Shown here: in pieces, positions 237-14,546 of the stretch
How positions within the stretch are numbered: position 1 is the stretch's first letter
Layout of the letters: each line of letters opens with the position of its first letter
Virus genome (UHGV): UHGV-0214741
Strand: one strand, 5' to 3'
DNA length: 14,669 nucleotides
DNA from: a virus
Notes under the pieces: generated by a model
Seen by the model: only the letters and a program-made list of their open reading frames with translations
Told to the model about the DNA's origin: nothing
Databases searched by the model: none
Position numbers and translations under genes: made by a program

Positions 237-253
237 ATGATAGTTATTTATCA
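237..253. repeat. Candidate attL core (ATGATAGTTATTTATCA)
   Basis: Matches 14530-14546 at 16 of 17 positions; also an imperfect dyad (TGATAG-TTAT-YTATCA). Both copies are preceded by GCCAA a few bases upstream. Confidence 0.45.
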
Positions 254-257
254 GTTA

Positions 258-400
258 GTGTTCGCGGGTGTTCGTCGTGGTGTATCTATCTCATTTATTG
301 CTATGATTATAAAGGAAAATTTCGTTTTTCTTGTTCGCCCTTGTTCGTCGCTGTTTGCCCTTGTACGATGCACGGTGTAGTCAATGGTGTAGTTAATTTT
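258..400. repeat. Left arm repeat block: TTGTTCG-type 10 bp repeats (258-280 and a tandem array 331-370) followed by tandem 12 bp GGTGTAGTYAAT x2 (374-397)
   Basis: Seen directly: GTGTTCGCGG, GTGTTCGTCGTGG, then TTGTTCGCCC / TTGTTCGTCG / CTGTTTGCCC / TTGTACGATG as four consecutive 10 bp units, then ACGGTGTAGTCAATGGTGTAGTTAATTTT. The same architecture recurs at 14401-14461. Position next to int and att suggests arm-type recombinase or excisionase binding sites. Confidence 0.6.
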
Positions 401-411
401 GATGACCGGAA

Positions 412-1659
412 ATGCGAAACATGAGCAGGGCAATTCATAGACTTAGCGACACTCTTTTACGAAAATTAAGCGGATCACCAACCACAAAAAACACCTTTTT
501 TAATGATGGTGGCAACCTTAGCGTAAGGCATTCAACCAATGGCCTGTTAACCTGGTATTTCACTTACAGGGCCGGAACTGGCAGGCAGGTATCACCGGAA
601 CGCCTGAGACTGGGCAACTATCCCGATCTGAGCCTGAAAGCAGCCAGAGAAAAAGCGGCACAGTGTCGCGCCTGGCTGGCGGAGGGGAAAAATCCACGCC
701 ATGAGCTTAATCACACAGTGCAGGAAGCGTTAGCACCTGTAACGGTTAAGGACGCGATCACTTACTGGCTTGAGTCATACGCGAAGGAAAAGCGCACTGA
801 CCACGAATCACTGAAAAGCCGGATCAATAAGCACATAATCAGCCAGATTGGTGCTATGCCGCTGGATAAATGCGAGTTACGCCACTGGCTGGCCTGTTTT
901 GACCAGCTTGCTAAGCGTAATCCGGTATCAGCCGGCTTTTTGTTGCAGGTATGCAAGCAGGCGCTTAAGTACTGCCGTAAACGTCGCTACGCCGTCAGTA
1001 ACGTTCTTGATGATATGGTCGTAGGTGATGTGGGAAAAAAAGCAGAAATAAGCGAGCGAGTGCTAACAAACAAGGAGCTTGGCGAGCTACTCCGCGCACT
1101 GGATGAAAAAATTTTCCCGCCGTACTACAGCGCCTTAATTCGCCTTCTGATTGTCTTTGGATGCCGTACCACTGAGCTAAGACGCTCCGAGGTTCAGGAA
1201 TGGGATTTTAAAGAAATGCTCTGGACTGTGCCGAAAGAACACAGCAAAACGAAGGTAGCAATATTCAGGCCAATACCGGAAGCGATCTTGCCGTTTGTCA
1301 TGAAGCTGGTGGAGAAGAACAGGCACACGGGCTTATTGCTTGGAGAACTGAAAGGGCAATCATCCGTAGCAGAGTACGGAAGAACGGCACACAGACGCAT
1401 TAATCAAGCCCCCTGGTCGTTGCATGACATCCGGCACACATTTACAACCATGCTGAACGATTTAGGCGTGGATCCGCATATTGTCGAGCAGCTTACCGCC
1501 CACCAGATGCCGGGGATGCAACGAGTCTATAACCACTCCCGTTATCTTGATGCAAAACGTGATGCTCTTAATCTATGGGTAGACCGTCTCGAGCTTCTCC
1601 AGAACAATGATGAAAAAATCGTTGTTATGACCCCGCGAATTTACCCCCAAAATTCTTGA
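412..1659 (+). CDS. int: Tyrosine site-specific integrase, P4-type (N-terminal DUF4102-like arm-binding domain plus C-terminal catalytic domain)
   Basis: 415 aa ORF. The N-terminus (LSDTLLRKL...FFNDGGNLSV...GLLTWYFTYR...LRLGNYPDLSLKAAREKA) fits the P4-integrase arm-binding pattern. The C-terminus has HDIRHTF (HxxR box) and RVYNHSRY with the catalytic Tyr. Stop TGA at 1657-1659. Confidence 0.9.
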   Translation: MRNMSRAIHRLSDTLLRKLSGSPTTKNTFFNDGGNLSVRHSTNGLLTWYFTYRAGTGRQVSPERLRLGNYPDLSLKAAREKAAQCRAWLAEGKNPRHELNHTVQEALAPVTVKDAITYWLESYAKEKRTDHESLKSRINKHIISQIGAMPLDKCELRHWLACFDQLAKRNPVSAGFLLQVCKQALKYCRKRRYAVSNVLDDMVVGDVGKKAEISERVLTNKELGELLRALDEKIFPPYYSALIRLLIVFGCRTTELRRSEVQEWDFKEMLWTVPKEHSKTKVAIFRPIPEAILPFVMKLVEKNRHTGLLLGELKGQSSVAEYGRTAHRRINQAPWSLHDIRHTFTTMLNDLGVDPHIVEQLTAHQMPGMQRVYNHSRYLDAKRDALNLWVDRLELLQNNDEKIVVMTPRIYPQNS

Positions 1660-2078
1660 CAAATTACGGCTGTTTTTTCTTTAAGAGATTACAGCCGTGA
1701 ATAAATCGTAGAATATCGGAAAATATCTGCAAATATCTTCGCTTTATATATGTCAACCATCAAAAAATTGGAATGTCTTCTTCTGAACTTTTATTCTCTG
1801 TTTCTTGATTGTTCCAACACTTGATGGTTTATCTATTTGTTTTTAATGAGATAATTCAAGCGTAATGCCAAGTAACGACATTTTTTGTTGCATCGCTTAA
1901 AAACTCGTGACACGATTTTAAACACTAACGAGCTTCTACGAACCTTAGCGAACAAAGCCTTTAGCAAGGTTGTGTTTTTAATTTAAGAGGTGAAAAAAGA
2001 ATCTAAGTAATATCCGATCTCATATATCTACAGCTAAGAGAAAAGTTTATATACGTAATTTTTTATGTAGGTTTCTGT

Positions 2079-2288
2079 ATGCGTGAAATAAATGAAGATC
2101 GCGTAATCCGTGAGGATGAATGTCGTAAGTTAACTGGAGTGTGTCGCACTACACGCTATGAACTGGAGAAAAAAGGGAATTTCCCGTCACGCCGTAATCT
2201 GGGCGGTCGTTCTGTAGGTTGGCTGCTGTCCGAGGTTATGGAATGGGTTAAAAGCCGGGATCGCATTAATTCAGGCAAGGCAGCGTAA
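2079..2288 (+). CDS. alpA: AlpA-family phage transcriptional regulator / excisionase-like DNA-binding protein
   Basis: 69 aa; the segment CRKLTGVCRTTRYELEKKGNFPSRRNLGGRSVGWLLSEVMEWVKSR matches the AlpA (Phage_AlpA) helix-turn-helix pattern. It lies immediately downstream of int, as in P4-like elements and PICIs. Preceded by a roughly 420 bp AT-rich non-coding region. Confidence 0.8.
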   Translation: MREINEDRVIREDECRKLTGVCRTTRYELEKKGNFPSRRNLGGRSVGWLLSEVMEWVKSRDRINSGKAA

Positions 2289-2305
2289 AGGGGAGCATAT
2301 GACAT

Positions 2306-2335
2306 ATAAAACAAAGGCGACCGGGGGCGGTCGCC
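2306..2335 (-). terminator. Candidate rho-independent terminator for the minus-strand small-gene unit
   Basis: Perfect 8 bp stem GGCGACCG / CGGTCGCC with a 4 nt loop at 2316-2335. On the minus strand it is followed by TTTGTTTTAT (complement of 2306-2315). Confidence 0.45.
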
Positions 2336-2402
2336 AATGGATACACACTAAACTTGAACGCATCACCAACAATGCCACATTTGCGGCTGGTGGGCAATGT
2401 GA

Positions 2403-2591
2403 TCAGTCAGATTTGGTTCGTTCCAAGGTTTGCAACGAGAGCTTTTTCCTGTGCTCTTTAAGGAATTTCTCAAGAGCAAAAGCACATGGCGCGAATCTTT
2501 CTGATTCATGCTCTATCTTTCTGCGCCGTCTTTTCCGTGCCGGTGATAATGTTTTGGTCAATTCTTTATCGGTCATTGTGTTGTCCTGCAT
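2403..2591 (-). CDS. Hypothetical small basic protein (about 57-62 aa)
   Basis: ORF downstream of the RHH gene on the minus strand; highly charged (ARKRRRRKIEHESERF). No convincing SD before the first ATG; the second ATG (codon 6, MTDKEL) has AGGA 7 nt upstream. Could be spurious. Confidence 0.3.
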   Translation of the reverse strand: MQDNTMTDKELTKTLSPARKRRRRKIEHESERFAPCAFALEKFLKEHRKKLSLQTLERTKSD

Positions 2592-2633
2592 AGCAATGCG
2601 CCGTAGTTACTCACACCACGGCGCTGGTGATGG

Positions 2634-2813
2634 TTACTCCTGCTCTTTGGCCTTGCGGCGCTGGCGGCGTTTGATCTCGCCTTTAACGGCAGTAACTATA
2701 AATTGCGCCTTGCTTTCACCTTCATCTAAATTTTTTTCTAAGTCTGCAACAACATCATGCGGGAATCTGGCATTTAACTGTTGCGACTTATTATTTGTTG
2801 AACCTGTTGCCAT
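2634..2813 (-). CDS. Ribbon-helix-helix (Arc/MetJ-like) DNA-binding protein, candidate repressor of the replication operon
   Basis: 59 aa starting from the internal ATG at 2813-2811, which has GAGAGGA 8 nt upstream. MATGSTNNKSQQLNARFPHDVVADLEKNLDEGESKAQFIVTAVKGEIKRR fits the RHH beta-strand / helix / helix pattern (compare Arc FNLRWPREVLDLVRKVAEENGRSVNSEIYQRV). Transcribed divergently from the 3004 operon. Confidence 0.55.
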   Translation of the reverse strand: MATGSTNNKSQQLNARFPHDVVADLEKNLDEGESKAQFIVTAVKGEIKRRQRRKAKEQE

Positions 2814-2833
2814 TACTGAATCCTCTCTAAGTT

Positions 2834-2926
2834 GGTGCGATTCAGTATACACAAAAAAAATTTCAGAGAAAGGCTTGAAGTGCGATTCACTTGCTGATAG
2901 GTTAAAAACGAATGGTGCGATGCACC
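2834..2926. promoter_or_regulatory. Divergent promoter/operator region with three GTGCGAT(T/G)CA repeats
   Basis: GGTGCGATTCAG at 2834-2845, AGTGCGATTCAC at 2879-2890, GGTGCGATGCACC at 2914-2926 (the last is a perfect dyad GGTGC-GAT-GCACC). A TATACT -10-like hexamer on the minus strand overlaps the first site. Confidence 0.4.
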
Positions 2927-3003
2927 AAGCAACAACGCCCCGCAGTGGTGGCACACATGCAGGGCGTCTAACCACCAACGATAGCAACAGTATCGAGGCA
3001 GCT

Positions 3004-3207
3004 ATGAGAAATTATACCAGACACCCGCAAGGGCGGGACTCGTACAACCTGAATAAATACATCTGGCGTTTTATCGCCCTGAGCACGGCACAACCGCGCG
3101 TGATTACCATTGAGGCCACCAGCGAACAGGAAGCACGCCAGCAATCCCCGGCTGGCTACGTGATGGTATTCGCCGCCCGTATTCGTCAGGGGGTGTGCCA
3201 TGCCTGA
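3004..3207 (+). CDS. Hypothetical protein, first gene of the replication operon (67 aa)
   Basis: Internal ATG of the 2299-3207 ORF with GAGG 5 nt upstream; the C-terminal 67 aa have normal composition while the upstream 235 codons do not. The stop overlaps the next ATG (ATGCCTGA). Confidence 0.5.
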   Translation: MRNYTRHPQGRDSYNLNKYIWRFIALSTAQPRVITIEATSEQEARQQSPAGYVMVFAARIRQGVCHA

Positions 3208-3520
3208 TATGTCAAATTACCAGTACCTGATTAATCCGCATTTTAACTGTGAGCATGATATTGCTAAAAAGGTTTATTCCGCTGCTGATGGGGCTACTGA
3301 CAATATATCAATGGCTGTTGCGTCAATTGGTAGCCTGATGTGGCATGCGTCAGAAAATGAGGACTATGACGAAAAGGCCATGCGCATTGATATGGGTAAT
3401 ATCGGTTTGTTACTGGCAATGCTTGGGCAGTTTGATATTTCGTTACGGTGCACCATTGAAAATGCCACAGATGCATTAAATGCCATAAAGAAAGCGAATA
3501 CTGATTCAAATCGGGGATAA
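3200..3520 (+). CDS. Hypothetical protein (106 aa)
   Basis: ORF with GGGGG 6 nt upstream of the ATG, translationally coupled to the previous gene. Hand count of one 60-nt line gives about 40 percent G+C, lower than the downstream replication gene. Confidence 0.6.
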   Translation: MPDMSNYQYLINPHFNCEHDIAKKVYSAADGATDNISMAVASIGSLMWHASENEDYDEKAMRIDMGNIGLLLAMLGQFDISLRCTIENATDALNAIKKANTDSNRG

Positions 3521-3526
3521 ATAATC

Positions 3527-3826
3527 ATGAGAACATATTTATCTGGCTTGACTGCCAGCGGTTATGCACACCCCAAAATTATCCCCGGCGCTATTTATCT
3601 GGATAAGAACGGTAACAGAGTAACGGTAAAAGAACTGATGTTTGACCGTGTGTATTTTATTCGTGATGGCTATTCATTTCATAGTTCGCTGAACGTGGAG
3701 ATCTTTATTAGCAGATTCCGGCGGGAAATCCCGACTTCCAGAAATAACCATGTGTCACGTGTGGATGTGGATAAAAAACTGCAGGAACTGAAAAACATGA
3801 TTGCCGCGTGGAGAGAGCCGAAATGA
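3527..3826 (+). CDS. Hypothetical protein (99 aa)
   Basis: ORF with GGGGA 9 nt upstream of the ATG. Its stop TGA (3824-3826) overlaps the replication-protein ATG (3823-3825) as ATGA. Hand-counted lines give about 37-42 percent G+C. Confidence 0.6.
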   Translation: MRTYLSGLTASGYAHPKIIPGAIYLDKNGNRVTVKELMFDRVYFIRDGYSFHSSLNVEIFISRFRREIPTSRNNHVSRVDVDKKLQELKNMIAAWREPK

Positions 3827-5640
3827 AAAAAGCGCCAAATTTAAAACACCAGCCGCGTGACAAAATGACGGAAGTCATCATTTTTGCGGGTAGTGATGCG
3901 TGGGCACATGCGAAGCAGTGGCAGGAACAGGACGGGCGACTGGCTGGCGATAACGTGCCACCTGTCTGGCTTGGAGAGCAACAACTTGCCGAACTGGACA
4001 ACCTGCAAATCGTACCGGACGGACGCTATCGCGTGCGTCTCTACCAGGCGGGGTTATTGCGTCCGGGGCTTGTTAATACCATCGGGCAGAAACTGGCAGC
4101 GGCAGGTGTCAGGGATGCTGATTATTACCCTGAAGGAATGCACAGCCAGAAACGGGAGAACTGGCGCGAATATCTGGAACGTGAACGGGCAGAGCAGGCG
4201 GAAAAGAAAAAGGTAGTTGAACTGCCTGTAAAGAAAAAAGAGCGGGTAAAAGACGATAACGCTTCATCACTGGCGCTTAACCAGATGGGAGCAAGTCAAC
4301 GCGGCGAAGTTCTCCTGGCACATTATGGCGGTGAACTGGCGATTCATGCTGACTCTGACACTGTTCACCATTACAACGGCGTTGTATGGGAGCCAGTACA
4401 GGATAAAGAATTACAGCGAGCTATGGCACAGATTTTCATTGATGCGGAGATCAGCTATTCGCAGAACGCCATTAAATCGGCGGTCGATACCATGAAGTTA
4501 AGTTTGCCTGTTATGGGGAATACAGCCCGTAACCTGATTGGATTCAGTAACGGGGTATTTGATACCAGAACAGGTAATTTTCGGGAGCATAACAAAAACG
4601 ACTGGTTGTTAATTGCCAGTGAATTACCTTTCAGCCCACCAGCAGAGGGGGAAACGCTGGCAACACATGCGCCGAATTTCTGGAAGTGGTTACGCCGTTC
4701 GGTGGCTGAGAATGACCGCAAGGCGGATCGCGTACTGGCTGCATTATTCATGGTGCTGGCGAACCGGTACGACTGGCAGTTATTCATTGAGGTAACAGGT
4801 CCAGGGGGAAGTGGTAAAAGCGTGATGGCGGAGATTTGCACCATGCTGGCGGGTAAGGCCAACACAGTATCGGCAAGCATGAAGGCGCTGGAAGATGCAA
4901 GGGAACGCGCGTTAGTGGTTGGCTTTTCGCTGATTATCATGCCGGATATGACCCGCTACGCTGGTGATGGGGCAGGAATTAAGGCCATTACAGGCGGTGA
5001 CAAGGTGGCAATTGACCCGAAACACAAAGCCCCCTACTCAACGCGTATTCCGGCAGTAGTGCTGGCGGTTAACAATAACGCCATGTCATTCAGTGACCGC
5101 AGCGGGGGGATCTCACGTCGTCGGGTGATATTCAATTTTTCGGAAGTTGTACCGGAGAACGAACGCGATCCAATGCTGGCGGAAAAAATAGAAGGTGAGC
5201 TGGCGGTAGTGATTCGCCATCTGCTTACACGGTTTGCTGACCAGGACGAAGCCAGACGCCTGTTATATGAGCAGCAGAAATCTGAAGAAGCACTGGCGAT
5301 AAAGCGAGAGGGGGATTCGCTGGTGGACTTCTGCGGCTATCTCATGGCGTCGGTAATGTGTGATGGCCTGTTAGTGGGTAATGCTGAAATTGTGCCATTC
5401 AGCCCACGCAGGTATCTCTATCATGCCTATCTGGCTTATATGAGGGCACATGGGTTTGGTAAACCTGTAACACTGACGCGCTTCGGTAAAGATATGCCGG
5501 GGGCAATGGCGGAATATGGCAGGGAGTATATGAAACGGAAAACGAAGCACGGTTTGCGTTCAAACGTGACACTGACGGAGGAATCAGAAGACTGGATGCC
5601 ATCATGTGTATCGGTCACTAATGACGATAGCAAAAATTAA
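3823..5640 (+). CDS. Replication protein, phage/plasmid primase P4-family C-terminal domain with SF3-type NTPase (Walker A GPGGSGKS)
   Basis: The ORF track starts at GTG 3808, but ATG 3823 has GGAGAG upstream and an ATGA overlap with the preceding gene. Walker A VTGPGGSGKSV and a Walker-B-like hhhhPD (LIIMPD) are present. It lies immediately upstream of a TGTTCACC iteron array, as for P4 alpha and its ori. Confidence 0.85.
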   Translation: MKKAPNLKHQPRDKMTEVIIFAGSDAWAHAKQWQEQDGRLAGDNVPPVWLGEQQLAELDNLQIVPDGRYRVRLYQAGLLRPGLVNTIGQKLAAAGVRDADYYPEGMHSQKRENWREYLERERAEQAEKKKVVELPVKKKERVKDDNASSLALNQMGASQRGEVLLAHYGGELAIHADSDTVHHYNGVVWEPVQDKELQRAMAQIFIDAEISYSQNAIKSAVDTMKLSLPVMGNTARNLIGFSNGVFDTRTGNFREHNKNDWLLIASELPFSPPAEGETLATHAPNFWKWLRRSVAENDRKADRVLAALFMVLANRYDWQLFIEVTGPGGSGKSVMAEICTMLAGKANTVSASMKALEDARERALVVGFSLIIMPDMTRYAGDGAGIKAITGGDKVAIDPKHKAPYSTRIPAVVLAVNNNAMSFSDRSGGISRRRVIFNFSEVVPENERDPMLAEKIEGELAVVIRHLLTRFADQDEARRLLYEQQKSEEALAIKREGDSLVDFCGYLMASVMCDGLLVGNAEIVPFSPRRYLYHAYLAYMRAHGFGKPVTLTRFGKDMPGAMAEYGREYMKRKTKHGLRSNVTLTEESEDWMPSCVSVTNDDSKN

Positions 5641-5654: not shown

Positions 5655-5883
5655 TGTTCACCACTGTTCACCCTGTCATAAATATCTTTTGTATCAGTAT
5701 GTTATAGGGTGAACAGTTATTTATGAACTGTTCACCAAACTATTCACTGTTCACCTTTTTGATTGTTTATTGAGCTTCAAGGGTGAACAGTGGTGAACAG
5801 TTGGTGAATAGTTTTTGTGAAACTGTTCACCCCTTAACATTATGAATTAAAAGATAAAATATCAAAAGGTGAACAGGTGAAGG
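5655..5883. promoter_or_regulatory. Replication origin: array of TGTTCACC iterons in both orientations with AT-rich spacers
   Basis: Forward TGTTCACC at 5655, 5665, 5729, 5748, 5824. Reverse GGTGAACA at 5708, 5782, 5792, 5868. Degenerate copies at 5803 (GGTGAATA) and 5876 (GGTGAAGG). Several are at 10 bp phasing. TGTTCACC is the P4 ori/crr type I iteron as I recall it. Confidence 0.7.
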
Positions 5884-6869: not shown

Positions 6870-6897
6870 GGCCTGGTAAAATCCAGGCCATTTTTTT
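6870..6897. terminator. Bidirectional rho-independent terminator between convergent genes
   Basis: Stem GGCCTGG (6870-6876), loop TAAAAT, stem CCAGGCC (6883-6889), then TTTTTTT (6891-6897) on the plus strand. The minus strand reads the same hairpin followed by TTTATTATT. Confidence 0.7.
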
Positions 6898-7402: not shown

Positions 7403-7467
7403 GATGCGTCCTTTGTTGTAGTCAGAGACAGCAATAATAGGCCATGGTTTACTTCTTTTGTAAATTA

Positions 7468-8912: not shown

Positions 8913-9473
8913 ATGAAAAACACCGATTTTGAAATCCGCACATCTGAACTGACCGCCAGCAATAAAAAGCTGGTGGGGTATGCCGTTCGCTGGAACAGCC
9001 TTTCAGAAATTATCTGGGACGAATTCCGCGAACAGTTCACGCCGGGGGCTTTTGCTGACTATCTGGCGACGGGTAATGATGTGCGCTGCCTGTATGAGCA
9101 TGACTATACCCAACTGCTGGGGCGCACCAAATCCGGCACTCTGGTACTGACTGAGGATAACACCGGGTTACGTTTTGAACTGACACCGCCGGATACCCAG
9201 CTTGGAAAAGATGTGCTTACGCTGGTGGAGCGTGGCGACATTACAGGAATGAGCTTTGGTTTTCGCGCATTATGCGAGGAGTGGAGTATCGCGCAAAAAC
9301 CGTATCTGCGTACCGTAACCGCCGCTGAACTCCGTGAAATCACAATAACGTCGATGCCTGCTTATCCAGAATCTGGCGTGGAGATTGCCCACCGTTCGTT
9401 GTTTGCACAGCACCCTGAATTACGTCCGACAGGAAATAATCGTCATCGCTGGTCTGAGCTGGCGGGGTTGTGA
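8913..9473 (+). CDS. Prohead maturation protease, HK97 family
   Basis: 186 aa; GYAVRWNS ... GAFADYL ... VRCLYEHD ... GLRFEL ... GDITGMSFGF matches the HK97 prohead protease pattern as I recall it. Confidence 0.85.
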   Translation: MKNTDFEIRTSELTASNKKLVGYAVRWNSLSEIIWDEFREQFTPGAFADYLATGNDVRCLYEHDYTQLLGRTKSGTLVLTEDNTGLRFELTPPDTQLGKDVLTLVERGDITGMSFGFRALCEEWSIAQKPYLRTVTAAELREITITSMPAYPESGVEIAHRSLFAQHPELRPTGNNRHRWSELAGL

Positions 9474-9474
9474 T

Positions 9475-10689
9475 ATGTGGTGGCCTTTTAGTCGTAAAAA
9501 AAGCGAGCAGCGTAACCTGTCCATTGATGATTTTCTGGCGCTGTCCGGCGTACCGAATACCGGATCCGGAGAATATGTTTCTGCCGGGACGGCTGAATCA
9601 TTGCCTGCAGTGATGAATGCGGTTTCTGTCATCGCTGAGGCGGTGGCCACGATGCCGTGTTATCTGTATCTGGTACGTAATGACAAGGGCAGGGAGGCGC
9701 GGGAATGGCTGGACAGTCACCCAGTAGATATTCTGCTGAATGAGCAGCCTAATTCGTGCCAGACACCTTACCAGTTTAAACGCACAATGATGCGTCACTG
9801 CCTGCTAAACGGTAACGCCTATGCGGTTATTGAGTGGGGGCAGGACGGGCAGCCAAAATCACTTCATCCTTATGCGCCGGGGTGTGTTGTACCGGAACGC
9901 ACAGGCGCACACAAATACCGCTATACCATCACCGAACCCTGTACAGGAACGGTGCGCACGTATTTACAGGAAGAAGTTTTGCATCTCCGCTATGCCTCGG
10001 ATGATGGCTTTCTGGGGCGTTCCCCCGTCACGATTTGCCGTGAGGCGCTGGGGCTTGGCCTTGCTCAACAGCGTCACGGAGCCAGCATTATGAAAGATGG
10101 CATGATGGCGGCAGGGATTATCACGTCAGGCGAATGGCTGGACGGCGTGAAAGGTAAACAGGCATTGGATGCTCTGGAACGCTACAAGGGGGCGAAAAAT
10201 GCCGGAAAAACGCCAATCCTTGAAGGGGGCATGGATTACAGGCAACTGGGAATGAGTAACCAGGATGCGGAATGGCTGGCCTCCCGTCGCTTCTCCATTG
10301 AAGACATCGCCCGCATGTTCAACGTATCGCCTATTTTTCTGCAGGAATACAGCAACAGCACCTACAGCAATTTCAGCGAGGCAAGCCGCGCGTTTCTGAC
10401 CATGACAATGCGCCCGTGGCTGGCGAACTTCGAACAGCAAATCAAGGCCGCTTTGCTGGTGGCTTCTCCCGTACCTGGTACCCGTTATCTGGTTGAGTTT
10501 GATTCAGCCGATTTATTACGCGCCACACCCACCGAACGTTATGCCACGTATGAGAAAGGGATTAAGAACGGGATCATGAATCCGAACGAAGCCCGTGAGC
10601 GTGAGGGTATGCCGCCGCGTGAAGGTGGTGATGAGTTCAGCCAGGCATGGAAACAGACTGTGGAAATTAAAGGGAGAAAAGATGAGTGA
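9475..10689 (+). CDS. Portal protein, HK97 family
   Basis: The ORF track starts at 9385 inside the protease gene. ATG 9475 (MWWPFSRKK...) begins 1 nt after the protease stop and is the more likely start. About 404 aa, with length and position typical of HK97-type portals. Confidence 0.85.
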   Translation: MWWPFSRKKSEQRNLSIDDFLALSGVPNTGSGEYVSAGTAESLPAVMNAVSVIAEAVATMPCYLYLVRNDKGREAREWLDSHPVDILLNEQPNSCQTPYQFKRTMMRHCLLNGNAYAVIEWGQDGQPKSLHPYAPGCVVPERTGAHKYRYTITEPCTGTVRTYLQEEVLHLRYASDDGFLGRSPVTICREALGLGLAQQRHGASIMKDGMMAAGIITSGEWLDGVKGKQALDALERYKGAKNAGKTPILEGGMDYRQLGMSNQDAEWLASRRFSIEDIARMFNVSPIFLQEYSNSTYSNFSEASRAFLTMTMRPWLANFEQQIKAALLVASPVPGTRYLVEFDSADLLRATPTERYATYEKGIKNGIMNPNEAREREGMPPREGGDEFSQAWKQTVEIKGRKDE

Positions 10690-10984
10690 AGCCAGAATTA
10701 CACCTGATGAAGTCAGGGCACATCTTCGACTTGATGATGATTTATCCGGTGAAGGCGAACTTCTGAAAATGTATACCGATGCGGCGCTGGAAGCCTGCCA
10801 GAAGCATATCGGGAAACGTTTTGAAGACGGGCTGGAATTTACCCCGGCAATGCGTGTTGGTTGCCTGATGTACATCGCTTTCCTGTACGAGAACCGGGAA
10901 GCGGTTTCACCAGTGGAGCACTCGGAACTGCCTATGGCTATTTCTGCGCTCTGGTCAGTTTATCGTGACGTAGGGGTGTACTGA
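10682..10984 (+). CDS. Head-tail connector (gp6-like head-tail adaptor) protein
   Basis: The ORF track begins at 10595, but ATG 10682 has GGGAG 5 nt upstream and overlaps the portal stop. MSEARITPDEVRAHLRLDDD...GELLKMYTDAALEACQKHIGKR fits the gp6-like connector pattern. About 100 aa. Confidence 0.7.
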   Translation: MSEARITPDEVRAHLRLDDDLSGEGELLKMYTDAALEACQKHIGKRFEDGLEFTPAMRVGCLMYIAFLYENREAVSPVEHSELPMAISALWSVYRDVGVY

Positions 10985-11424
10985 TGCCGTGGCAACCATT
11001 AAGGCGATGCACTGAGCCTGGCTGTAATAAGCGCGTGAAGTCCGGCAAGTGTGAAGAGCACAGGCGGGCTGCATGGCGTGCAGAGGATGCCAGACGGGGA
11101 CACCGCCGCGCGCGCGGGTATTCCCGACAGTGGGACAAATACCGCGCCCTGTACCTGAGCAAAAACCCGTTATGCGTGCGTTGTCTGGCTAAGGGGATTT
11201 ATACGCCAGCTCTTGTGGTGGATCACATCATTCCCATCAATGGCGGCGGTGATGTTCTCTTCTGGCCTGAGTGGAATCACCAGGCATTGTGCCAGACGTG
11301 CCACAACCGTAAGACGACACGAGAAGATCCAGCCACGAAAGCAAACCGTAAAGCGGGCATGTATCGCGAGCAGGAAGAACGGGCGGCACACCGTAACGAC
11401 TGGATGTATGGCGATGATGACTGA
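10984..11424 (+). CDS. HNH endonuclease (packaging-associated, terminase partner)
   Basis: 146 aa; Cys-rich N-terminus (CTEPGCNKRVKSGKCEEH) and HNH core VVDHIIPINGGGD ... WNHQALCQTCHNRKT. Its ATG overlaps the connector stop (TGATG). Position immediately upstream of terS is the usual one for HNH-dependent cos packaging. Confidence 0.85.
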   Translation: MPWQPLRRCTEPGCNKRVKSGKCEEHRRAAWRAEDARRGHRRARGYSRQWDKYRALYLSKNPLCVRCLAKGIYTPALVVDHIIPINGGGDVLFWPEWNHQALCQTCHNRKTTREDPATKANRKAGMYREQEERAAHRNDWMYGDDD

Positions 11425-11600
11425 ACAGGAGCAAACCAGGCTGATACGTGGACTGATAAGGCAGCGTGACACATGGAAGACACAGGAGACAGAGCACAAA
11501 GCCAACAGGACAGGGCGCACAAAACGCACCACAGCGAAGCGATTAACCGACCGTGACCGCGAGGTCATGGAATGTTTTCGCAATCGCTGGTGAGGCCGTC

Positions 11601-11700
11601 AGAGGGGGTGGGGGTGGTTTTCAGGACGAAACCGTCCCTGCCGGACACCGACCGCCCCCTCAAATTTTTGTGCACGGTAATTTTTTTGAAAATAATTGGG
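11601..11700. other. Candidate cos / terminase recognition region: GC-rich dyad element followed by an AT-rich tract, directly upstream of terS
   Basis: GAGGGGGTGG (11602-11611) pairs with CCGCCCCCTC (11652-11661) with one mismatch; nested GGACG-AAAC-CGTCC hairpin (11624-11637); then AAATTTTTG...TTTTTTTGAAAATAATT. Functional assignment is by position only. Confidence 0.3.
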
Positions 11701-11712
11701 CGAAAAAAGAAC

Positions 11713-12069
11713 ATGGCAAGACCACCAAAAGCCCCCGCTTACCTGGATGAAATCGCGGTCAGGCAGTGGAAGGAAAAATCGCGCCAGCTTTCCGGGCGGG
11801 AAGACCTTACCCCCGCCGACTGGAGCAATCTGGAACTGTATTGCGTTAACTACTCTATATACCGCAAAGCCGTCGAAGACCTTGCGACGCGCGGGTTCAG
11901 CATTGTTAACAGTCAGGGCAGCGAGAGCAGAAACCCCGCACTGAGCGCAAAGGCTGACGCAGAAAGAATAATGATCAAAATGGCTTCTTTGCTGGGTTTT
12001 GACCCGGTAAGCCGTCGCAGAAATCCACCGGAAACAGAGGAAGAGGACGAACTTGACCGCCTGGCATGA
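11713..12069 (+). CDS. terS: Terminase small subunit, P27-family-like
   Basis: The ORF track starts at 11572, but the recognisable protein begins at ATG 11713 (MARPPKAPAYLDEIAVRQWKEK...), a typical P27-type TerS N-terminus. About 118 aa. Confidence 0.8.
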   Translation: MARPPKAPAYLDEIAVRQWKEKSRQLSGREDLTPADWSNLELYCVNYSIYRKAVEDLATRGFSIVNSQGSESRNPALSAKADAERIMIKMASLLGFDPVSRRRNPPETEEEDELDRLA

Positions 12070-13714
12070 GTACGCAGAAGGCGTAAAAAACGGCAAAATT
12101 ACGGCCTGTAAACGACTGAAACAGGCTGTTAAACGGTATTTTTCTGACCTTGAAAACTCCCTTTACACGTTCGATCCGGAGGTCGTGGAGCGGTTTATTG
12201 CCTTTTCCCGGGTGTGCCCGCACGTAAAAGGCGCAATGCGCGGTAGCCCCATTGAACTTGAGCCGTGGCAGCAGTTCGCCTTTGCCTGCATCCTGGGATT
12301 TAAGGTTAAGGCCACCGGACGGCGCAAATACACCAGCGCATTCATTGAAGTACCGCGAAAAAATGCCAAATCCACGGTCGCCGCTATCCTGGCTAACTGG
12401 TTTCTGGTTATGGAAAACGGGCAGCAGGATATTTACACCGCCGCCGTGAGTCGTGATCAGGCGCGGATCGTGTTTGATGATGCGCGTCAGATGTGCCTTT
12501 TATCCCGACCGTTACGAAAGCGGGTAAATATTCAGGCGCACAAGGTGATACACCCGAAAACCAACAGCCTGTTAAAGCCACTGGCAGCAAAAGCGGCAAC
12601 CATTGAGGGGACAAACCCGAGTCTTGCCATTGTGGATGAATATCACCTGCACCCAGACAACGGGGTTTATTCCGCACTTGAACTGGGGATGGGGGCGCGT
12701 CCGGAGGGGCTGTTATTTGCCATCACCACATCGGGGAGCAACGTTGTTTCAGCCTGTAAACAACACTACGACTATTGCTGCCAGATACTGGATGGTGAAG
12801 AGGTGAACGAATCCATGTTCGTACTGATTTACGAGCTGGATGATGAAAGCGAGGTTGACGATCCGGCGATGTGGATAAAGGCGAATCCCAATATCGATGT
12901 TTCCGTCGATCGTGAAAAACTGGCCTCAACCATCCAGAAAGCGCGGGGTATTCCGTCGCAGTGGGTGGAAATGCTCACCAAGCGATTCAATATCTGGTGT
13001 CAGGGGGCTACGCCGTGGATGGGTAACGGTGCATGGGCGGAGTGCGCCGGAACGTTCGCTGAGGCGGATTTATACGGGCAGGAGTGCTATGCGGGGCTGG
13101 ACTTATCATCAACCAGCGATATTTCCAGCGTGTGCTATGCCTTTCCGGTCGGTAAAAAGATTATGCTGGTTTCACGTCACTATCTACCGGAATTTCAGCT
13201 ACAGAACCCTGCCAATAAAAACCGCGCCATCTATCGCCAGTGGGCAAAGGCGGGCTGGATACGCACAACACCGGGTGACTGCATTGATTATGACCGTATC
13301 CGTGATGACATCATGGCGGATGCAGAGAATTTCAATATCAGGCTGGTGGGTTTCGATACATGGAACGCCACGCACCTGAGGACGCAGCTACAGGGAGCGG
13401 GATTTGAGGTGGAGCCGTTCCCGCAAACGTACCTTCGTTTTAGTCCGGCGGCGAAATCGTTCGAAGTTTTTGTTAACCGGAAGGTGATTGTTCATCGTGG
13501 TGATCCGGTGCTGGCCTGGTCAATGAGTAATGTTGTGATGCAGAGTGACGCGAACGCCAATATCAAGCCGAACAAGAAAAAATCATCCAATAAGATAGAC
13601 CCGAGCGTTGCGGCGCTGATGGCGTTTGGCACATTCCAGGCTGAGCATGAGGAATTTGCATTTGATATGAGCGACAGCCAGAAAGAGCGACTTGCGGCAT
13701 TTGATGGGGTATGA
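12053..13714 (+). CDS. terL: Terminase large subunit (Terminase_1-like ATPase/nuclease)
   Basis: 553 aa. The ORF opens with TTG at 12053, preceded by AGAGGA 5 nt upstream; there is no in-frame ATG nearby. It overlaps the terS 3' end. Size and position fit TerL; VPRKNAKST is a Walker-A-like motif. The exact start is uncertain. Confidence 0.85.
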   Translation: MTAWHEYAEGVKNGKITACKRLKQAVKRYFSDLENSLYTFDPEVVERFIAFSRVCPHVKGAMRGSPIELEPWQQFAFACILGFKVKATGRRKYTSAFIEVPRKNAKSTVAAILANWFLVMENGQQDIYTAAVSRDQARIVFDDARQMCLLSRPLRKRVNIQAHKVIHPKTNSLLKPLAAKAATIEGTNPSLAIVDEYHLHPDNGVYSALELGMGARPEGLLFAITTSGSNVVSACKQHYDYCCQILDGEEVNESMFVLIYELDDESEVDDPAMWIKANPNIDVSVDREKLASTIQKARGIPSQWVEMLTKRFNIWCQGATPWMGNGAWAECAGTFAEADLYGQECYAGLDLSSTSDISSVCYAFPVGKKIMLVSRHYLPEFQLQNPANKNRAIYRQWAKAGWIRTTPGDCIDYDRIRDDIMADAENFNIRLVGFDTWNATHLRTQLQGAGFEVEPFPQTYLRFSPAAKSFEVFVNRKVIVHRGDPVLAWSMSNVVMQSDANANIKPNKKKSSNKIDPSVAALMAFGTFQAEHEEFAFDMSDSQKERLAAFDGV

Positions 13715-14001
13715 CGAGAATGACTGAAACTGATCTACTAAAAATAATTCGCCGCATTACCGGAATCAGTCAGCAGCCTGACGAACAGGCTACACAGCCG
13801 GACAGCGTGATAGCCGAAAATTACGCGCGTGTGGTGGCTGAGGTAATGCGCCGTGACGGTATTGAGCTTAACGGCGTGGATATGCGCAACATACGAACCA
13901 GAGTTCTTGAGTTGCTGGCATACCGTCGCCGTTCTCAACAACGGAGGGAGAGCGCGAAAAATACTTACCAGTGGAGGAAGCCGGAGCACTTACGGCGGTA
14001 A
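13711..14001 (+). CDS. Hypothetical protein (96 aa), translationally coupled to terL
   Basis: Its ATG overlaps the terL stop (ATGA at 13711-13714). Arg-rich C-terminus. Last gene of the packaging operon; function unknown. Confidence 0.5.
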   Translation: MTRMTETDLLKIIRRITGISQQPDEQATQPDSVIAENYARVVAEVMRRDGIELNGVDMRNIRTRVLELLAYRRRSQQRRESAKNTYQWRKPEHLRR

Positions 14002-14020
14002 CTGGTTGATATTACCGAAA

Positions 14021-14226
14021 GTGCAAAAATGCACTTAGCAACTGGTGGCGAGTTGCAGATCTGCAACTCGACTATGAAACTACCCGTAGTTTGGGTAGTA
14101 AGAGTAACACCCAGATTTTGGGGCTTACTCGCGATACCCAAATAAAGGGTATCGGTGTAAGAAATATCGTTTCTCATATGTGAGCACCGAGGGCGGAATT
14201 CCGCCTTCGGTTACTTATTGTGCTCA
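14021..14226. repeat. Non-coding cluster of perfect and near-perfect palindromes / stem-loops
   Basis: GTGCA-AAAA-TGCAC (14021-14034); perfect 18 bp palindrome AGTTGCAGATCTGCAACT (14051-14068); ACTACCC-N7-GGGTAGT (14079-14099); GATACCC-N7-GGGTATC (14133-14153); perfect 14 bp GGCGGAATTCCGCC (14192-14205) inside a 24 bp near-palindrome (14187-14210), itself flanked by TGAGCAC (14181-14187) and GTGCTCA (14220-14226). Confidence 0.5.
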
Positions 14227-14400
14227 TGCACAGGGAGGGGCGGGTCAAATCTCTGTACCCTGACGTCTTCCGGACTGCCAGCCCCATCGATTTTTTATAC
14301 CCGCGAAAAATGAAAAACGCTTCACGCTGGTGGGCCTGATGCCGATAACTGGTTTCATGACTGATAGCCGGAAAATGATAACGATTAAAGCGTGTTGATC

Positions 14401-14461
14401 TTTGTTCGTGGTTGTTCGATATTGTTCGTGGAACGGTGTAGTTAATGGTGTAGTTAATTTT
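14401..14461. repeat. Right arm repeat block: TTGTTCG repeats x3 followed by tandem GGTGTAGTTAAT x2
   Basis: TTTGTTCGTGG (14401-14411), TTGTTCGAT (14412-14420), ATTGTTCGTGG (14421-14431), then ACGGTGTAGTTAATGGTGTAGTTAATTTT (14433-14461). This 29-mer matches 372-400 with one mismatch. Confidence 0.6.
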
Positions 14462-14529
14462 ACTGTTTTTGACGAGCTTATTGTTTGCAACTCAATGAAA
14501 AATAAAGGCTAATAAGCCAAATGCTATAA

Positions 14530-14546
14530 ATGATAGTTATCTATCA
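14530..14546. repeat. Candidate attR core (ATGATAGTTATCTATCA)
   Basis: Direct repeat of 237-253 with one mismatch; a perfect dyad TGATAG-TTAT-CTATCA. Confidence 0.45.

What the first reader, a model, noticed from the sequence alone, without database searches (positions are those of the whole stretch)
237..14546. Capsid-forming PICI-type satellite: makes its own HK97 head and terminase but carries no tail or lysis genes
The combination of int, alpA, a P4-family replication protein with iteron ori, and a complete head and packaging module without any tail, tail-fibre, holin or endolysin gene in about 14 kb matches the cf-PICI class of satellites, which build their own capsids and borrow only tails from a helper. 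This is consistent with a published family rather than a new one, but the individual element and its cargo may be undescribed.
Basis: partly seen in the sequence, partly recalled or inferred. Interest (0 to 1): 0.6.

Follow-up and report, generated by a model that had tools for sequence, protein, structure and literature searches.

The report
Capsid-forming phage satellite missing its stopper
This is a 14.3-kb capsid-forming phage satellite (cf-PICI) integrated in the E. coli chromosome, a member of an already published family, notable mainly because it lacks the head-closure gene that the studied members need.

Summary
Window 233-14546 is an integrated element bounded by 21-bp att repeats at the 3' end of yljB, between cspD and clpS. 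It carries int, alpA, a P4-alpha-like rep with nine TGTTCACC iterons, ssb, and an HK97-type capsid, protease, portal, connector, HNH, TerS and TerL. No tail, holin or endolysin gene was found. It is gene-for-gene syntenic with the prototype EcCIEDL933 (capsid 63%, portal 81%, TerL 93%). Its capsid matches the solved EcCIEDL933 capsid (PDB 9GYI, E=7e-154). Capsids of full-length phage genomes reach only 37% identity. The cf-PICI reading is supported, and the family is known: the same packaging module is in 160 of 5,426 complete E. coli genomes.

One real difference: it lacks the gp16-SPP1-type head-closure gene that all three characterised cf-PICIs carry, giving 10 of 11 SatelliteFinder core components. 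About a quarter of related viral contigs lack it too.

Found in passing:
- A covariation-supported structured leader of about 150 nt in front of the capsid gene, absent from Rfam.
- Phased TTGTTCG boxes at both att arms and at the capsid promoter.
- An unannotated cargo gene whose N-terminal barrel resembles phage neck and stopper proteins.

The parts
233..253 (.). attL core, overlapping the stop codon of the host gene yljB
   Evidence: Direct repeat with 14526-14546. Alignment with the empty K-12 attB puts the crossover within ATGATAGTTAT.
259..347 (+). Phased (T)TGTTCG boxes on the attL arm upstream of int (259, 269, 332, 342)
   Evidence: These form part of a 69-nt arm repeat shared with 14393-14461.
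374..397 (+). Two tandem integrase arm-type sites, GGTGTAGTyAAT
   Evidence: The same pair recurs at 14435-14458 and at both ends of EcCIEDL933. It is absent from the SMS-3-5 element, which has a different integrase.
412..1659 (+). Tyrosine integrase with an arm-binding domain. In relatives the annotated start corresponds to window 421.
   Evidence: PF00589 and PF13356. It is 77% identical to the EcCIEDL933 Int.
2079..2288 (+). alpA, the candidate inducer, excisionase and regulator
   Evidence: PF05930 at 2.9e-16. It is 43% identical to P4 Vis (ORF88) and 68% identical to the EcCIEDL933 AlpA.
2299..3207 (+). 302-aa ORF in the variable slot after alpA; its C-terminal ~50 aa form an Icd-like domain
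   Evidence: NF033153 matches residues 254-297 and phrog_6196 matches residues 214-301. The N-terminal part has no family. The ORF is only 68% identical in the closest genome.
3200..3520 (+). 106-aa ORF of unknown function
   Evidence: phrog_15327, function unknown.
3527..3826 (+). DUF4222 protein
   Evidence: PF13973 at 7e-17.
3823..5640 (+). Replication protein with a P4-alpha-like helicase and origin-binding part, joined to a different N-terminus
   Evidence: D5_N, DUF5906 and Pox_D5. Residues 145-595 are 51% identical to P4 alpha residues 320-771. The first 140 aa are 70% identical to the EcCIEDL933 Rep.
5655..5875 (.). Replication origin: nine TGTTCACC iterons on both strands around AT-rich spacers
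   Evidence: The window holds 10 copies against 0.6 expected. The sequence is identical to the annotated P4 'ori type 1 repeat'.
5928..6173 (+). 81-aa ORF conserved in EcCIEDL933 (71% identical)
   Evidence: phrog_1231, function unknown.
6170..6595 (+). Single-strand DNA-binding protein
   Evidence: PF00436. It is 69% identical to the EcCIEDL933 SSB.
6564..6860 (+). Small ORF of unknown function. The start is uncertain; relatives are annotated from the position equivalent to 6612.
   Evidence: phrog_1957. It is 45% identical to an EcCIEDL933 ORF.
6870..6889 (.). Bidirectional terminator-like hairpin between the replication genes and the cargo gene
6896..7402 (-). Cargo gene orf168c. It has low G+C, an N-terminal beta-barrel, a disordered linker and a hydrophobic Gly/Ala-rich C-terminal helix.
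7459..7539 (+). Control region of the packaging operon: an invariant TGTAAAT, three phased TTGTTCG-like boxes (7468-7495) and a promoter-like site (7512-7539)
   Evidence: The equivalent layout is present in EcCIEDL933 and in the SMS-3-5 element.
7540..7688 (+). Structured 5' leader made of hairpins P1, P2 and P3, abutting the capsid start codon
   Evidence: The fold has z=-2.9. The covariance model hits once per locus in 31 sources. On that alignment 96.9% of cells pair against 36-45% in slid controls, and 12 pairs show compensatory change. No Rfam family matches.
7689..8858 (+). HK97-fold major capsid protein
   Evidence: PF05065 at 1.9e-71. It hits PDB 9GYI, the EcCIEDL933 capsid, at E=7e-154.
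8913..9473 (+). Prohead serine protease
   Evidence: PF04586 at 6e-46.
9475..10689 (+). Portal protein
   Evidence: PF04860 at 2.6e-92 and TIGR01537. It is 81% identical to the EcCIEDL933 portal.
10682..10984 (+). The only head-tail joining gene: a gp6-like connector (PHROG 'adaptor Ad1')
   Evidence: PF05135, TIGR01560 and phrog_40. The portal stop and the HNH start leave no room for a second gene.
10984..11424 (+). HNH endonuclease of the packaging machinery
   Evidence: PF01844. It is 84% identical to the EcCIEDL933 HNH.
11408..11593 (+). 61-aa ORF, homologue of EcCIEDL933 gene 1792
   Evidence: It is 77% identical. Mutating gene 1792 severely reduced EcCIEDL933 transfer (paper).
11594..11712 (.). 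Candidate cos or packaging site in a conserved non-coding spacer
   Evidence: The spacer is conserved across genera. Its architecture resembles the HK022 genome ends. The linear vB_KppS-Ant record breaks inside it.
11713..12069 (+). Small terminase, P27 family
   Evidence: PF05119 and TIGR01558.
12053..13714 (+). Large terminase (TTG start)
   Evidence: PF03354 and PF20441. It is 93% identical to the EcCIEDL933 TerL.
13720..14001 (+). 93-aa ORF that follows terL in this and related elements
   Evidence: phrog_1561, function unknown. It is 73% identical in EcCIEDL933. The C-terminal motif Y.W.KPE..RR is conserved.
14186..14211 (+). Terminator-like hairpin ending the packaging operon
   Evidence: 11-bp stem with 8 G-C pairs.
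14402..14458 (+). attR arm: three phased TTGTTCG boxes (14402-14428) followed by two integrase arm sites (14435-14458)
14526..14546 (.). attR core

Best explanation
The window holds an intact, probably still mobile capsid-forming PICI of the EcCIEDL933/KpCIDSM30104 lineage, integrated by its own tyrosine integrase at an attB overlapping the 3' end of yljB.

Likely life cycle:
1. A helper phage switches on alpA. This is shown for EcCIEDL933 and inferred here.
2. AlpA is homologous to P4 Vis, an excisionase and regulator. It promotes excision and activates the element's operons. The phased TTGTTCG boxes beside the integrase arm sites and in front of the capsid promoter are candidate binding sites.
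3. The P4-alpha-like Rep binds the TGTTCACC iterons just downstream of its gene and, with the element's SSB, replicates the circle.
4. A single operon behind a structured leader RNA makes capsid, protease, portal, one connector, HNH, TerS and TerL. By homology to the solved EcCIEDL933 capsid, these build small T=4 heads. The 14.3-kb genome is packaged from a cos site in the orf61-terS spacer.
5. Tails and lysis come from the helper.
6. The element has no head-closure (stopper) gene, so it most likely also takes that protein from a co-resident HK97-like helper.

What is shown: gene content, synteny, att sites, iterons, absence of the head-closure gene, and RNA covariation. What is inferred: induction, T=4 capsids, the cos position, the role of the boxes, and borrowing of the stopper.
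For: - Att sites and empty-site comparison.
- Domain assignments.
- Synteny and identities with EcCIEDL933 and with the K. pneumoniae ATCC 13883 element.
- The capsid hits 9GYI at E=7e-154, with the 'connector loop' region aligned and only a 1-residue gap.
- The capsid is 61-77% identical to four satellite-like or anomalous records and 37% or less to full-length phage genomes.
- Rep and iterons match P4 alpha and the P4 type-1 iterons. AlpA is 43% identical to P4 Vis.
- No tail, holin, endolysin or stopper homologues were found.
- Signs of recent mobility:
  - The 6.8-kb packaging region is 100.0% identical in strain ST648, where it sits at rcnR|thiM behind a different integrase.
  - The same module is in 160 of 5,426 complete genomes.
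  - APEC37 has the same att site and integrase with a different rep and no orf168c.
- The experimental basis for the family comes from the papers read.
Against: - Nothing here was tested experimentally for this element, and its helper is unknown.
- In EcCIEDL933 every packaging-module mutant lost transfer, except the gene-1792 mutant, whose transfer was severely reduced.
- The adaptor plus connector pair sets tail specificity in all three studied cf-PICIs. An element with only one of the two might therefore be transfer-defective.
- Borrowing of a helper stopper has no direct support. The window's connector is only 25% identical to HK022 gp6.
- The assignment of the boxes to AlpA is imperfect. 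Three loci with the other AlpA class still have TTGTTC-like boxes.
Confidence: 0.88

Rival explanations
1. It is a cf-PICI that has become defective. Loss of the head-closure gene left capsids that cannot retain DNA or dock tails, so the element is now an immobile remnant inherited vertically.
For: The gene is absent. Its EcCIEDL933 counterpart lies in a module where every mutant lost transfer, apart from gene 1792, whose mutant was severely reduced. The adaptor plus connector pair determines tail use.
Against: - The deletion is clean: the portal and connector genes overlap by 8 nt.
- All other genes are intact.
- The same module is 100.0% identical at a second att site behind a different integrase and recombined with another rep at this site.
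- The one-connector layout recurs in about 10 species representatives from distant genera and in 23 of 89 related viral contigs with portal identities of 76-100%.
- SatelliteFinder reports 10-of-11 elements as the commonest class.
Confidence: 0.1
2. It is the remnant of an HK97-like temperate prophage that lost its tail, lysis and immunity genes.
For: The head and terminase genes are of HK97 type.
Against: - The att sites are intact at both ends.
- The size is 14.3 kb, with PICI-type int, alpA and rep instead of lambdoid regulation.
- The gene order matches cf-PICIs rather than HK022.
- tblastn at E<=0.01 finds only the HK022 portal (26%) and TerL (27%); the HK022 capsid gives no hit.
- The closest capsids in the phage collection lie in satellite-sized or otherwise anomalous records.
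Confidence: 0.02
3. It is a P4-like satellite that acquired a head module.
For: Rep is 51% identical to P4 alpha, the iterons are identical to those of P4, and AlpA is homologous to P4 Vis.
Against: There are no homologues of sid, psu, delta, epsilon or cI. Rep lacks the alpha primase domain. The integrase is only 24% identical to the P4 integrase. Rep modules are swapped between otherwise identical elements.
Confidence: 0.02

Closest known systems
EcCIEDL933 (prototype cf-PICI, E. coli O157:H7 EDL933; Alqurainy et al., bioRxiv 10.1101/2022.09.08.507074)
   Same: The gene order is the same: int, alpA, variable ORF plus Icd-like, DUF4222, rep, ssb, capsid, protease, portal, connector, HNH, small ORF, terS, terL, small ORF. 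Identities are 56-93% across the packaging module. The integrase arm sites GGTGTAGTTAAT are the same. TTGTTC boxes sit at the same three places.
   Different: - EcCIEDL933 has an additional head-closure gene (PF05521/TIGR01563) between portal and connector.
- It has a DUF927 Rep and a PerC-like gene, and it lacks orf168c.
- It uses a different attB (roxA|phoQ).
- Its leader is of a different sequence class and ends in a terminator-like hairpin plus U8.
KpCIDSM30104 and EcCIGN02175 (He et al., bioRxiv 10.1101/2025.02.11.637232)
   Same: These have the closest capsid (76%), protease (84%), portal (87%), Rep (75%) and the same class of leader RNA. The comparison uses the element in K. pneumoniae ATCC 13883, which to my knowledge is the same type strain as DSM 30104.
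   Different: Both carry adaptor plus connector, and these were shown to set tail specificity. They have a different AlpA class and different boxes, and a different integrase (48%).
Classical E. coli PICIs (for example EcCICFT073)
   Same: They share the int-alpA-rep left half and alpA-dependent induction, according to the papers.
   Different: Classical PICIs have no capsid, portal, connector or TerL and are packaged in helper capsids. I did not compare sequences with them directly.
Satellite phage P4
   Same: The alpha helicase and origin-binding region is 51% identical, the TGTTCACC iterons are identical, and AlpA is homologous to Vis (43%).
   Different: There is no sid, psu, delta, epsilon or cI, and no alpha primase domain. 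P4 uses P2 capsid proteins, whereas this element encodes its own.
HK97-like temperate phages (HK97, HK022, HK106)
   Same: They share the HK97-fold capsid, S78 protease, HK97-type portal and the HNH-TerS-TerL cos packaging system. The cos-region architecture looks similar.
   Different: Only the HK022 portal (26%) and TerL (27%) are detectable by tblastn. The module order differs, and there are no tail, lysis or stopper genes. HK022 carries Ad1 plus two Hc1-annotated genes.

Membership tests
cf-PICI (SatelliteFinder model, PMC10085698) | Integrase | tested here: met
   PF00589 and PF13356.
cf-PICI (SatelliteFinder model, PMC10085698) | Regulator (AlpA, MerR or Stl) | tested here: met
   PF05930 at 2.9e-16.
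cf-PICI (SatelliteFinder model, PMC10085698) | Primase-replicase | tested here: met
   D5_N, DUF5906 and Pox_D5. It is 51% identical to P4 alpha.
cf-PICI (SatelliteFinder model, PMC10085698) | Own major capsid protein | tested here: met
   PF05065 and TIGR01554. PDB 9GYI hit at E=7e-154.
cf-PICI (SatelliteFinder model, PMC10085698) | Prohead serine protease | tested here: met
   PF04586.
cf-PICI (SatelliteFinder model, PMC10085698) | Portal | tested here: met
   PF04860 and TIGR01537.
cf-PICI (SatelliteFinder model, PMC10085698) | Head-tail connector (gp6-like) | tested here: met
   PF05135, TIGR01560 and phrog_40.
cf-PICI (SatelliteFinder model, PMC10085698) | Head-tail adaptor, i.e. head-closure protein (gp16 SPP1-like, PF05521) | tested here: not met
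   The EcCIEDL933 protein has no tblastn hit at E<=1. A profile built from 61 cf-PICI homologues scores at best E=0.75 against all six-frame ORFs of 30 aa or more. The model still accepts 10 of 11 components as 'Type B'.
cf-PICI (SatelliteFinder model, PMC10085698) | HNH nuclease, TerS and TerL | tested here: met
   PF01844, PF05119, PF03354 and PF20441.
cf-PICI (SatelliteFinder model, PMC10085698) | No tail and no holin genes (forbidden components) | tested here: met
   No such Pfam or PHROG hit. No HK022 tail or lysis homologue. The element is bounded by host genes. The SatelliteFinder profiles themselves were not run.
cf-PICI (SatelliteFinder model, PMC10085698) | Size about 14 kb with about 19 genes | tested here: met
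   The element is 14.3 kb with about 20 ORFs. The published median is 14 kb and 19 proteins.
cf-PICI (experimental definition, Alqurainy et al.) | Capsid and terminase group with satellites rather than with phages | tested here: met
   Four records reach 60% or more: two of satellite size (vB_KppS-Ant 16.5 kb, Pmp8 15.3 kb), one 3.8-kb fragment and one 106-kb record. The remaining 603 matching records are below 60%, and the best listed full-length phages are at 37%.
cf-PICI (experimental definition, Alqurainy et al.) | alpA-dependent induction by a helper phage | not testable with these tools
   Only homology to the EcCIEDL933 AlpA (68%) is available.
cf-PICI (experimental definition, Alqurainy et al.) | Builds its own small (T=4) capsids, packages only itself and needs only helper tails | not testable with these tools
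   This is inferred from 63% identity to the solved T=4 capsid protein and from the genome size. 'Only tails' is doubtful here, given the missing stopper.
P4-like satellites | sid, psu, delta, epsilon and cI hijacking and immunity genes | tested here: not met
   Only int, the alpha C-terminal part and vis have hits.
Classical PICIs | No portal, connector or adaptor genes (forbidden in the PICI model) | tested here: not met
   A portal and a connector are present. The model description was read.

The most novel reading that the evidence does not exclude
Two linked readings remain open.

(a) One-connector cf-PICIs such as this one are functional satellites that take not only tails but also the head-closure (stopper) protein from the helper. 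If so, they would be confined to co-resident helpers and excluded from the 'tail-less capsid plus free tail' route described for the studied cf-PICIs.

(b) Capsid production in this clade is gated by an undescribed cis-acting leader RNA. Its first hairpin can pair with the 5' strand of the last hairpin, which is an SD-occluding helix here and a terminator in EcCIEDL933. This switch would act downstream of phased AlpA boxes.
Probability: 0.3. Interest if true: 0.65.

Novelty: new member of a known kind. Interest (0 to 1): 0.4.

Why it matters
As a cf-PICI it adds little: the family is published and this packaging module is common in E. coli.

It is useful as a clean natural example of a cf-PICI with one head-tail joining gene instead of two. 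The current model makes the adaptor plus connector pair the determinant of tail choice, and it relies on stable, DNA-filled tail-less capsids. About a quarter of this clade lacks the gene that normally plugs the portal. Whether these elements are restricted to co-resident helpers can be tested directly.

The conserved leader RNA and the phased boxes give concrete handles on how the capsid operon is switched on. The papers read here do not address that question.

Tried and rejected
- Locating EcCIEDL933: three 45-50-kb stretches of the EDL933 chromosome held only ordinary prophages or core genes. Two further requests failed outright, one for an absent accession and one for an over-long range. 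The element was found at 1.680-1.695 Mb.
- orf168c as a replacement stopper: rejected.
  - Its barrel resembles neck and stopper proteins.
  - The hhalign probability against the cf-PICI head-closure profile is below 1%.
  - It co-occurs with the head-closure gene in eight other loci and is absent from the other one-connector loci.
  - Elsewhere it sits in variable regions rather than in head modules: beside P2-type tail genes in Pseudomonas, among unannotated ORFs in Xanthomonas and Shewanella.
  - PilZ barrels score almost as well, but the PilZ motifs do not fit.
- orf93 as a stopper: not supported. It is also present in EcCIEDL933, which has its own head-closure gene. No structure was predicted for it.
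- Leader RNA as an HK022 put-like element: the covariance model gives no hit in HK022 (best E=2.6). No Rfam family matches.
- PADLOC: no defence-system hit for any unknown ORF, apart from a weak BrxA match for orf93 (E=0.007).
- P4 'type 2' repeats (CCACTTAAAG) do not resemble the TTGTTCG boxes.
- Class II AlpA elements do not repeat their capsid-promoter box near int.
- Literature: no paper in the library mentions WP_001053662. No text names cspD|clpS as a PICI attB. The att-site tables of the cf-PICI paper are not held.
- tRNA scan: none in the window.

Full report
**1. What is in the window**

The 14,669-base window is E. coli chromosome. The start of cspD (minus strand) and the small gene yljB occupy bases 1-240, and clpS begins at 14633.

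Between them lies an insert bounded by an imperfect 21-bp direct repeat: 233-253 ATAGATGATAGTTATTTATCA and 14526-14546 ATAAATGATAGTTATCTATCA. The empty site in K-12 reads ATAGATGATAGTTATCTATCA. Each junction carries one host-type and one element-type mismatch, which places strand exchange within ATGATAGTTAT.

Just inside both ends is a 69-nt arm repeat (332-400 and 14393-14461). It contains two tandem GGTGTAGTyAAT motifs preceded by TTGTTCG boxes spaced 10 bp apart.

**2. Gene content**

Pfam, NCBIfam and PHROGs give the following:
- a tyrosine integrase with an arm-binding domain (412-1659)
- AlpA (2079-2288)
- a 302-aa ORF whose last ~50 residues are Icd-like (2299-3207)
- two small ORFs, one of them DUF4222
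- a D5_N/DUF5906/Pox_D5 replication protein (3823-5640)
- an 81-aa ORF, SSB (6170-6595) and another small ORF
- a reverse-strand, low-G+C 168-aa ORF (6896-7402)
- one rightward block:
  - HK97 capsid (7689-8858)
  - S78 protease (8913-9473)
  - HK97 portal (9475-10689)
  - gp6-like connector (10682-10984)
  - HNH (10984-11424)
  - a 61-aa ORF
  - P27-type TerS (11713-12069)
  - TerL (12053-13714)
  - a 93-aa ORF
  - a strong terminator-like hairpin (14186-14211)

No ORF matches a tail, tail-fibre, holin or endolysin family. HK022 tail, holin, endolysin and head-closure proteins give no tblastn hit at E<=0.01.

**3. Replication module**

TGTTCACC occurs 10 times in the window against 0.6 expected. 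Nine copies lie in 5655-5875, directly after rep, on both strands around AT-rich spacers. This octamer is exactly the annotated 'ori type 1 repeat' of satellite P4, which has 11 exact copies in its ori and crr.

Rep residues 145-595 are 51% identical to P4 alpha residues 320-771 (E=8e-164). The alpha primase domain is replaced by a 140-aa N-terminus that is 70% identical to the N-terminus of the EcCIEDL933 Rep.

AlpA is 43% identical to P4 ORF88 (Vis), annotated as 'excisionase and transcriptional regulator'. No sid, psu, delta, epsilon or cI homologue exists. The element therefore shares parts with P4 but is not a P4-like satellite.

**4. Comparison with characterised cf-PICIs**

I located the prototype EcCIEDL933 in the EDL933 chromosome between roxA and phoQ. 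The two elements are collinear. Identities are int 77%, AlpA 68%, SSB 69%, capsid 63%, protease 62%, portal 81%, connector 56%, HNH 84%, the homologue of gene 1792 77%, TerS 88-89%, TerL 93% and the post-TerL ORF 73%.

The capsid hits PDB 9GYI at E=7e-154 over its full length. The He et al. preprint identifies 9GYI as the EcCIEDL933 T=4 capsid. The region of the proposed size-determining 'connector loop' aligns with only a 1-residue gap.

The element in K. pneumoniae ATCC 13883 is, to my knowledge, the same type strain as DSM 30104 and hence very probably KpCIDSM30104. It is closer still in capsid (76%), protease (84%) and portal (87%).

Against 50,697 phage records, only four reach 60% capsid identity or more. 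Two are satellite-sized (vB_KppS-Ant, 16.5 kb; Pasteurella Pmp8, 15.3 kb). One is a 3.8-kb fragment and one is an odd 106-kb record. The other 603 matching records are below 60%, and the best listed full-length phages (SfI, SfII, SfIV and others) reach 37%.

The cf-PICI interpretation is supported.

**5. The one defining feature that fails**

EcCIEDL933 has two genes between portal and HNH:
- a head-closure protein (PF05521 Phage_HCP, TIGR01563 gp16_SPP1)
- a gp6-like connector

The window has only the connector. The portal stop (10689) overlaps the connector start (10682), and the connector ends where HNH starts.

The EcCIEDL933 head-closure protein has no tblastn hit in the window even at E<=1. 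A profile built from 61 cf-PICI homologues scores no better than E=0.75 against all 275 six-frame ORFs of 30 aa or more.

[quoted passage not shown] It accepts 10 of 11 as Type B, which is its largest class (459 of 969). By that scheme this element is a Type B cf-PICI.

Two experimental results make the gap functionally interesting:
- In EcCIEDL933, every packaging-module mutant lost transfer except the gene-1792 mutant, whose transfer was severely reduced.
- The adaptor plus connector pair sets which tails can be used in EcCIEDL933, EcCIGN02175 and KpCIDSM30104, all of which have both genes.

**6. Is the one-connector layout decay or a working variant?**

Several observations argue for a working variant:
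- Among one-genome-per-species representatives carrying a related portal, about 55 loci have the two-gene layout (portal-to-HNH gap about 630-660 bp). About 10 have only the connector (gap 267-374 bp). These include Yersinia aleksiciae, Pantoea, Erwinia, Leclercia, Symbiopectobacterium, Xenorhabdus and one of five Gilliamella/Frischella loci.
- Among IMG/VR contigs sharing the leader motif, 66 have both genes and 23 have only the connector, with portal identities from 76 to 100%.
- In complete E. coli genomes, 160 of 5,426 carry this packaging module over at least 80% of its length.
- Strain ST648 has it at 100.0% nucleotide identity over 6.8 kb, but at rcnR|thiM behind a different integrase (67% identical).
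- Strain APEC37 has the window's att site and integrase with a DUF927-type rep and no orf168c.

Identical modules at different sites and in different combinations indicate recent movement and recombination. I therefore favour a functional variant over a dead remnant (about 0.1).

The simplest way it could work is that the head-closure protein, like the tail, comes from a co-resident HK97-like helper. HK022 encodes an Ad1 and two Hc1-annotated proteins. This is inference only.

**7. Cargo gene orf168c**

This reverse-strand gene has 36% G+C locally. It lies in the variable slot before the packaging operon, where the He et al. preprint expects immune systems.

It has no Pfam or PADLOC match and belongs to a PHROG of unknown function. 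Homologues occur across Enterobacterales, Pseudomonas, Shewanella and Xanthomonas, all unannotated.

An AlphaFold model from a 35-sequence alignment (pLDDT 78) shows three parts:
- an N-terminal beta-barrel (residues 1-90)
- a disordered linker containing a conserved FNIGSVSGxQVQIG motif
- C-terminal helices ending in a hydrophobic Gly/Ala-rich stretch

It is not a hidden replacement for the missing stopper:
- Profile comparison with the cf-PICI head-closure family gives a probability below 1%.
- It co-occurs with that gene in eight other loci and is missing from the other one-connector loci.
- Outside cf-PICIs it sits beside the P2-type tail genes of a presumed prophage, next to a HEPN-like gene, or in regions of unannotated ORFs.

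A stand-alone accessory function is the best guess, for example defence or interference that senses or mimics a neck component. This is untested.

**8. Control region and leader RNA (found in passing)**

Upstream of the capsid gene the layout is:
- an invariant TGTAAAT (7459-7465)
- three TTGTTCG-like boxes at about 10-bp phase (7468-7495)
- a promoter-like site (7512-7539)
- a leader of about 150 nt

TTGTTCG occurs 9 times in the window against 2.5 expected. Seven copies fall in three phased clusters: upstream of int, upstream of the capsid promoter, and on the attR arm. EcCIEDL933 has TTGTTC boxes at the same three places. So does the SMS-3-5 element, whose integrase and arm sites differ but whose AlpA is 92% identical.

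Across loci, all 10 elements with this AlpA class have TTGTTC-type boxes at the capsid promoter. Most elements with the second AlpA class have CTCATGTTTAC-type boxes, with three exceptions. This fits AlpA acting as excisionase and activator, but it does not prove it.

The leader folds into hairpins P1, P2 and P3. A covariance model built from 19 sequences finds exactly one hit per locus in 31 of 71 sources, always abutting the capsid ATG.

On that alignment 96.9% of cells pair, against 36-45% when partners are slid. Twelve pairs show compensatory changes (8 of 9 in P2, 4 of 10 in P1), and no shuffle out of 500 reaches the observed values. The alignment was fitted to the model, so these numbers lean towards the structure. 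P2's compensatory changes are also plain in the MAFFT alignment.

P3 is invariant within this class. Its 3' strand overlaps the likely ribosome-binding site.

The P1 loop and 3' strand (AGACGUGA) are complementary to the P3 5' strand (UCACGUCU). Within the class only one pair covaries (U-A to G-C in two loci). Analogous complementarity is seen in the Xenorhabdus class and in EcCIEDL933. In EcCIEDL933 the last hairpin is followed by U8 immediately before the ATG; the simple terminator scan misses it, presumably because its loop is too long for the pattern.

This suggests an attenuator or anti-sequestor switch. The evidence for alternative pairing is only suggestive.

No Rfam family matches, and the model finds nothing in HK022. 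The 25-nt P1 sequence occurs exactly in at least 120 IMG/VR contigs, mostly 14-18 kb long. In the curated phage collection the leader is found only in three of the four records that carry a cf-PICI-type capsid.

**9. Candidate cos site**

The 119-bp spacer between the 61-aa ORF and terS (11594-11712) is strongly conserved across genera. It has a G-run, a spacer of about 40 bp, CCGCCCCCTCAAATTTTT and a T-run. The ends of the HK022 genome show the same architecture around the physical terminus. The linear vB_KppS-Ant record breaks inside the same spacer. This is an inference by analogy.

**10. Verdict**

The element is a new mosaic member of a known family. The best whole-window match in complete genomes is 97.9% identical over 98%. 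Its attB is heavily used: the same yljB-int junction is present in 367 of 5,426 complete genomes.

Interest is moderate to low for the finding as posed. It rises somewhat because of the missing head-closure gene, which can be tested directly against the current tail-piracy model, and because of the undescribed leader RNA.

Noticed in passing
window 7540-7688 (control region from 7459): A structured 5' leader of about 150 nt (hairpins P1, P2, P3) lies directly upstream of the capsid gene and is conserved in related cf-PICIs of many genera. It has 12 compensatory base pairs and no Rfam family. The P1 loop is complementary to the 5' strand of P3, suggesting a switch.
   Followed up: yes
window 259-347, 7468-7495, 14402-14428: TTGTTCG boxes phased at 10 bp form three clusters: next to the integrase arm sites on both att arms, and just upstream of the capsid-operon promoter. 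The same three positions are seen in EcCIEDL933 and in an element with a different integrase. The box type largely follows the AlpA class. They are candidate AlpA (Vis-like) sites.
   Followed up: partly
[not shown]
   Followed up: partly
L009:23085-23123 (EcCIEDL933, just before its capsid ATG): The prototype's leader ends in a 7-bp GC-rich hairpin followed by U8 immediately before the capsid start codon. An upstream hairpin is complementary to the 5' strand of this hairpin. This looks like a transcription attenuator in the experimentally studied element.
   Followed up: partly
window 11594-11712: A conserved non-coding spacer between the 61-aa ORF and terS has an architecture like the HK022 genome ends. 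It is the likely cos site.
   Followed up: partly
loci L036, L044, L060, L062-L064, L068, L069, L071, L072; IMG/VR loci listed: cf-PICIs with only the connector and no head-closure gene recur in distant genera. They make up 23 of 89 related viral contigs, which suggests repeated loss or a stable alternative design.
   Followed up: yes
L096 (strain ST648, rcnR|thiM) and L220 (strain APEC37, cspD|clpS): The same packaging module, at up to 100.0% nucleotide identity, is combined with a different integrase and att site (ST648) or with a different rep and no cargo gene at the same att site (APEC37). The modules are being shuffled. The yljB-int junction is present in 367 of 5,426 complete E. coli genomes.
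   Followed up: partly
phage-collection records LR881103.1 (L219), OR544139.1, OR850982.1, PQ569648.1: Several records deposited as phages carry cf-PICI-type capsids, and three of them also carry the leader. They appear to be satellites, or chimeric assemblies, filed as phages. The 765-aa 'tape measure' annotated in vB_KppS-Ant has no Pfam support.
   Followed up: partly
window 2299-3207: The variable gene after alpA is one continuous 302-aa ORF here, ending in an Icd-like domain. In EcCIEDL933 a 247-aa ORF and a 65-aa Icd-like gene are separate. Relatives annotate a reverse-strand YlcI/YnfO gene in this stretch.
   Followed up: no
window 13720-14001: The small ORF after terL belongs to a very abundant E. 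coli family with a conserved basic C-terminal motif (Y.W.KPE..RR). Shorter versions follow terL in other cf-PICIs. Its function is unknown.
   Followed up: partly
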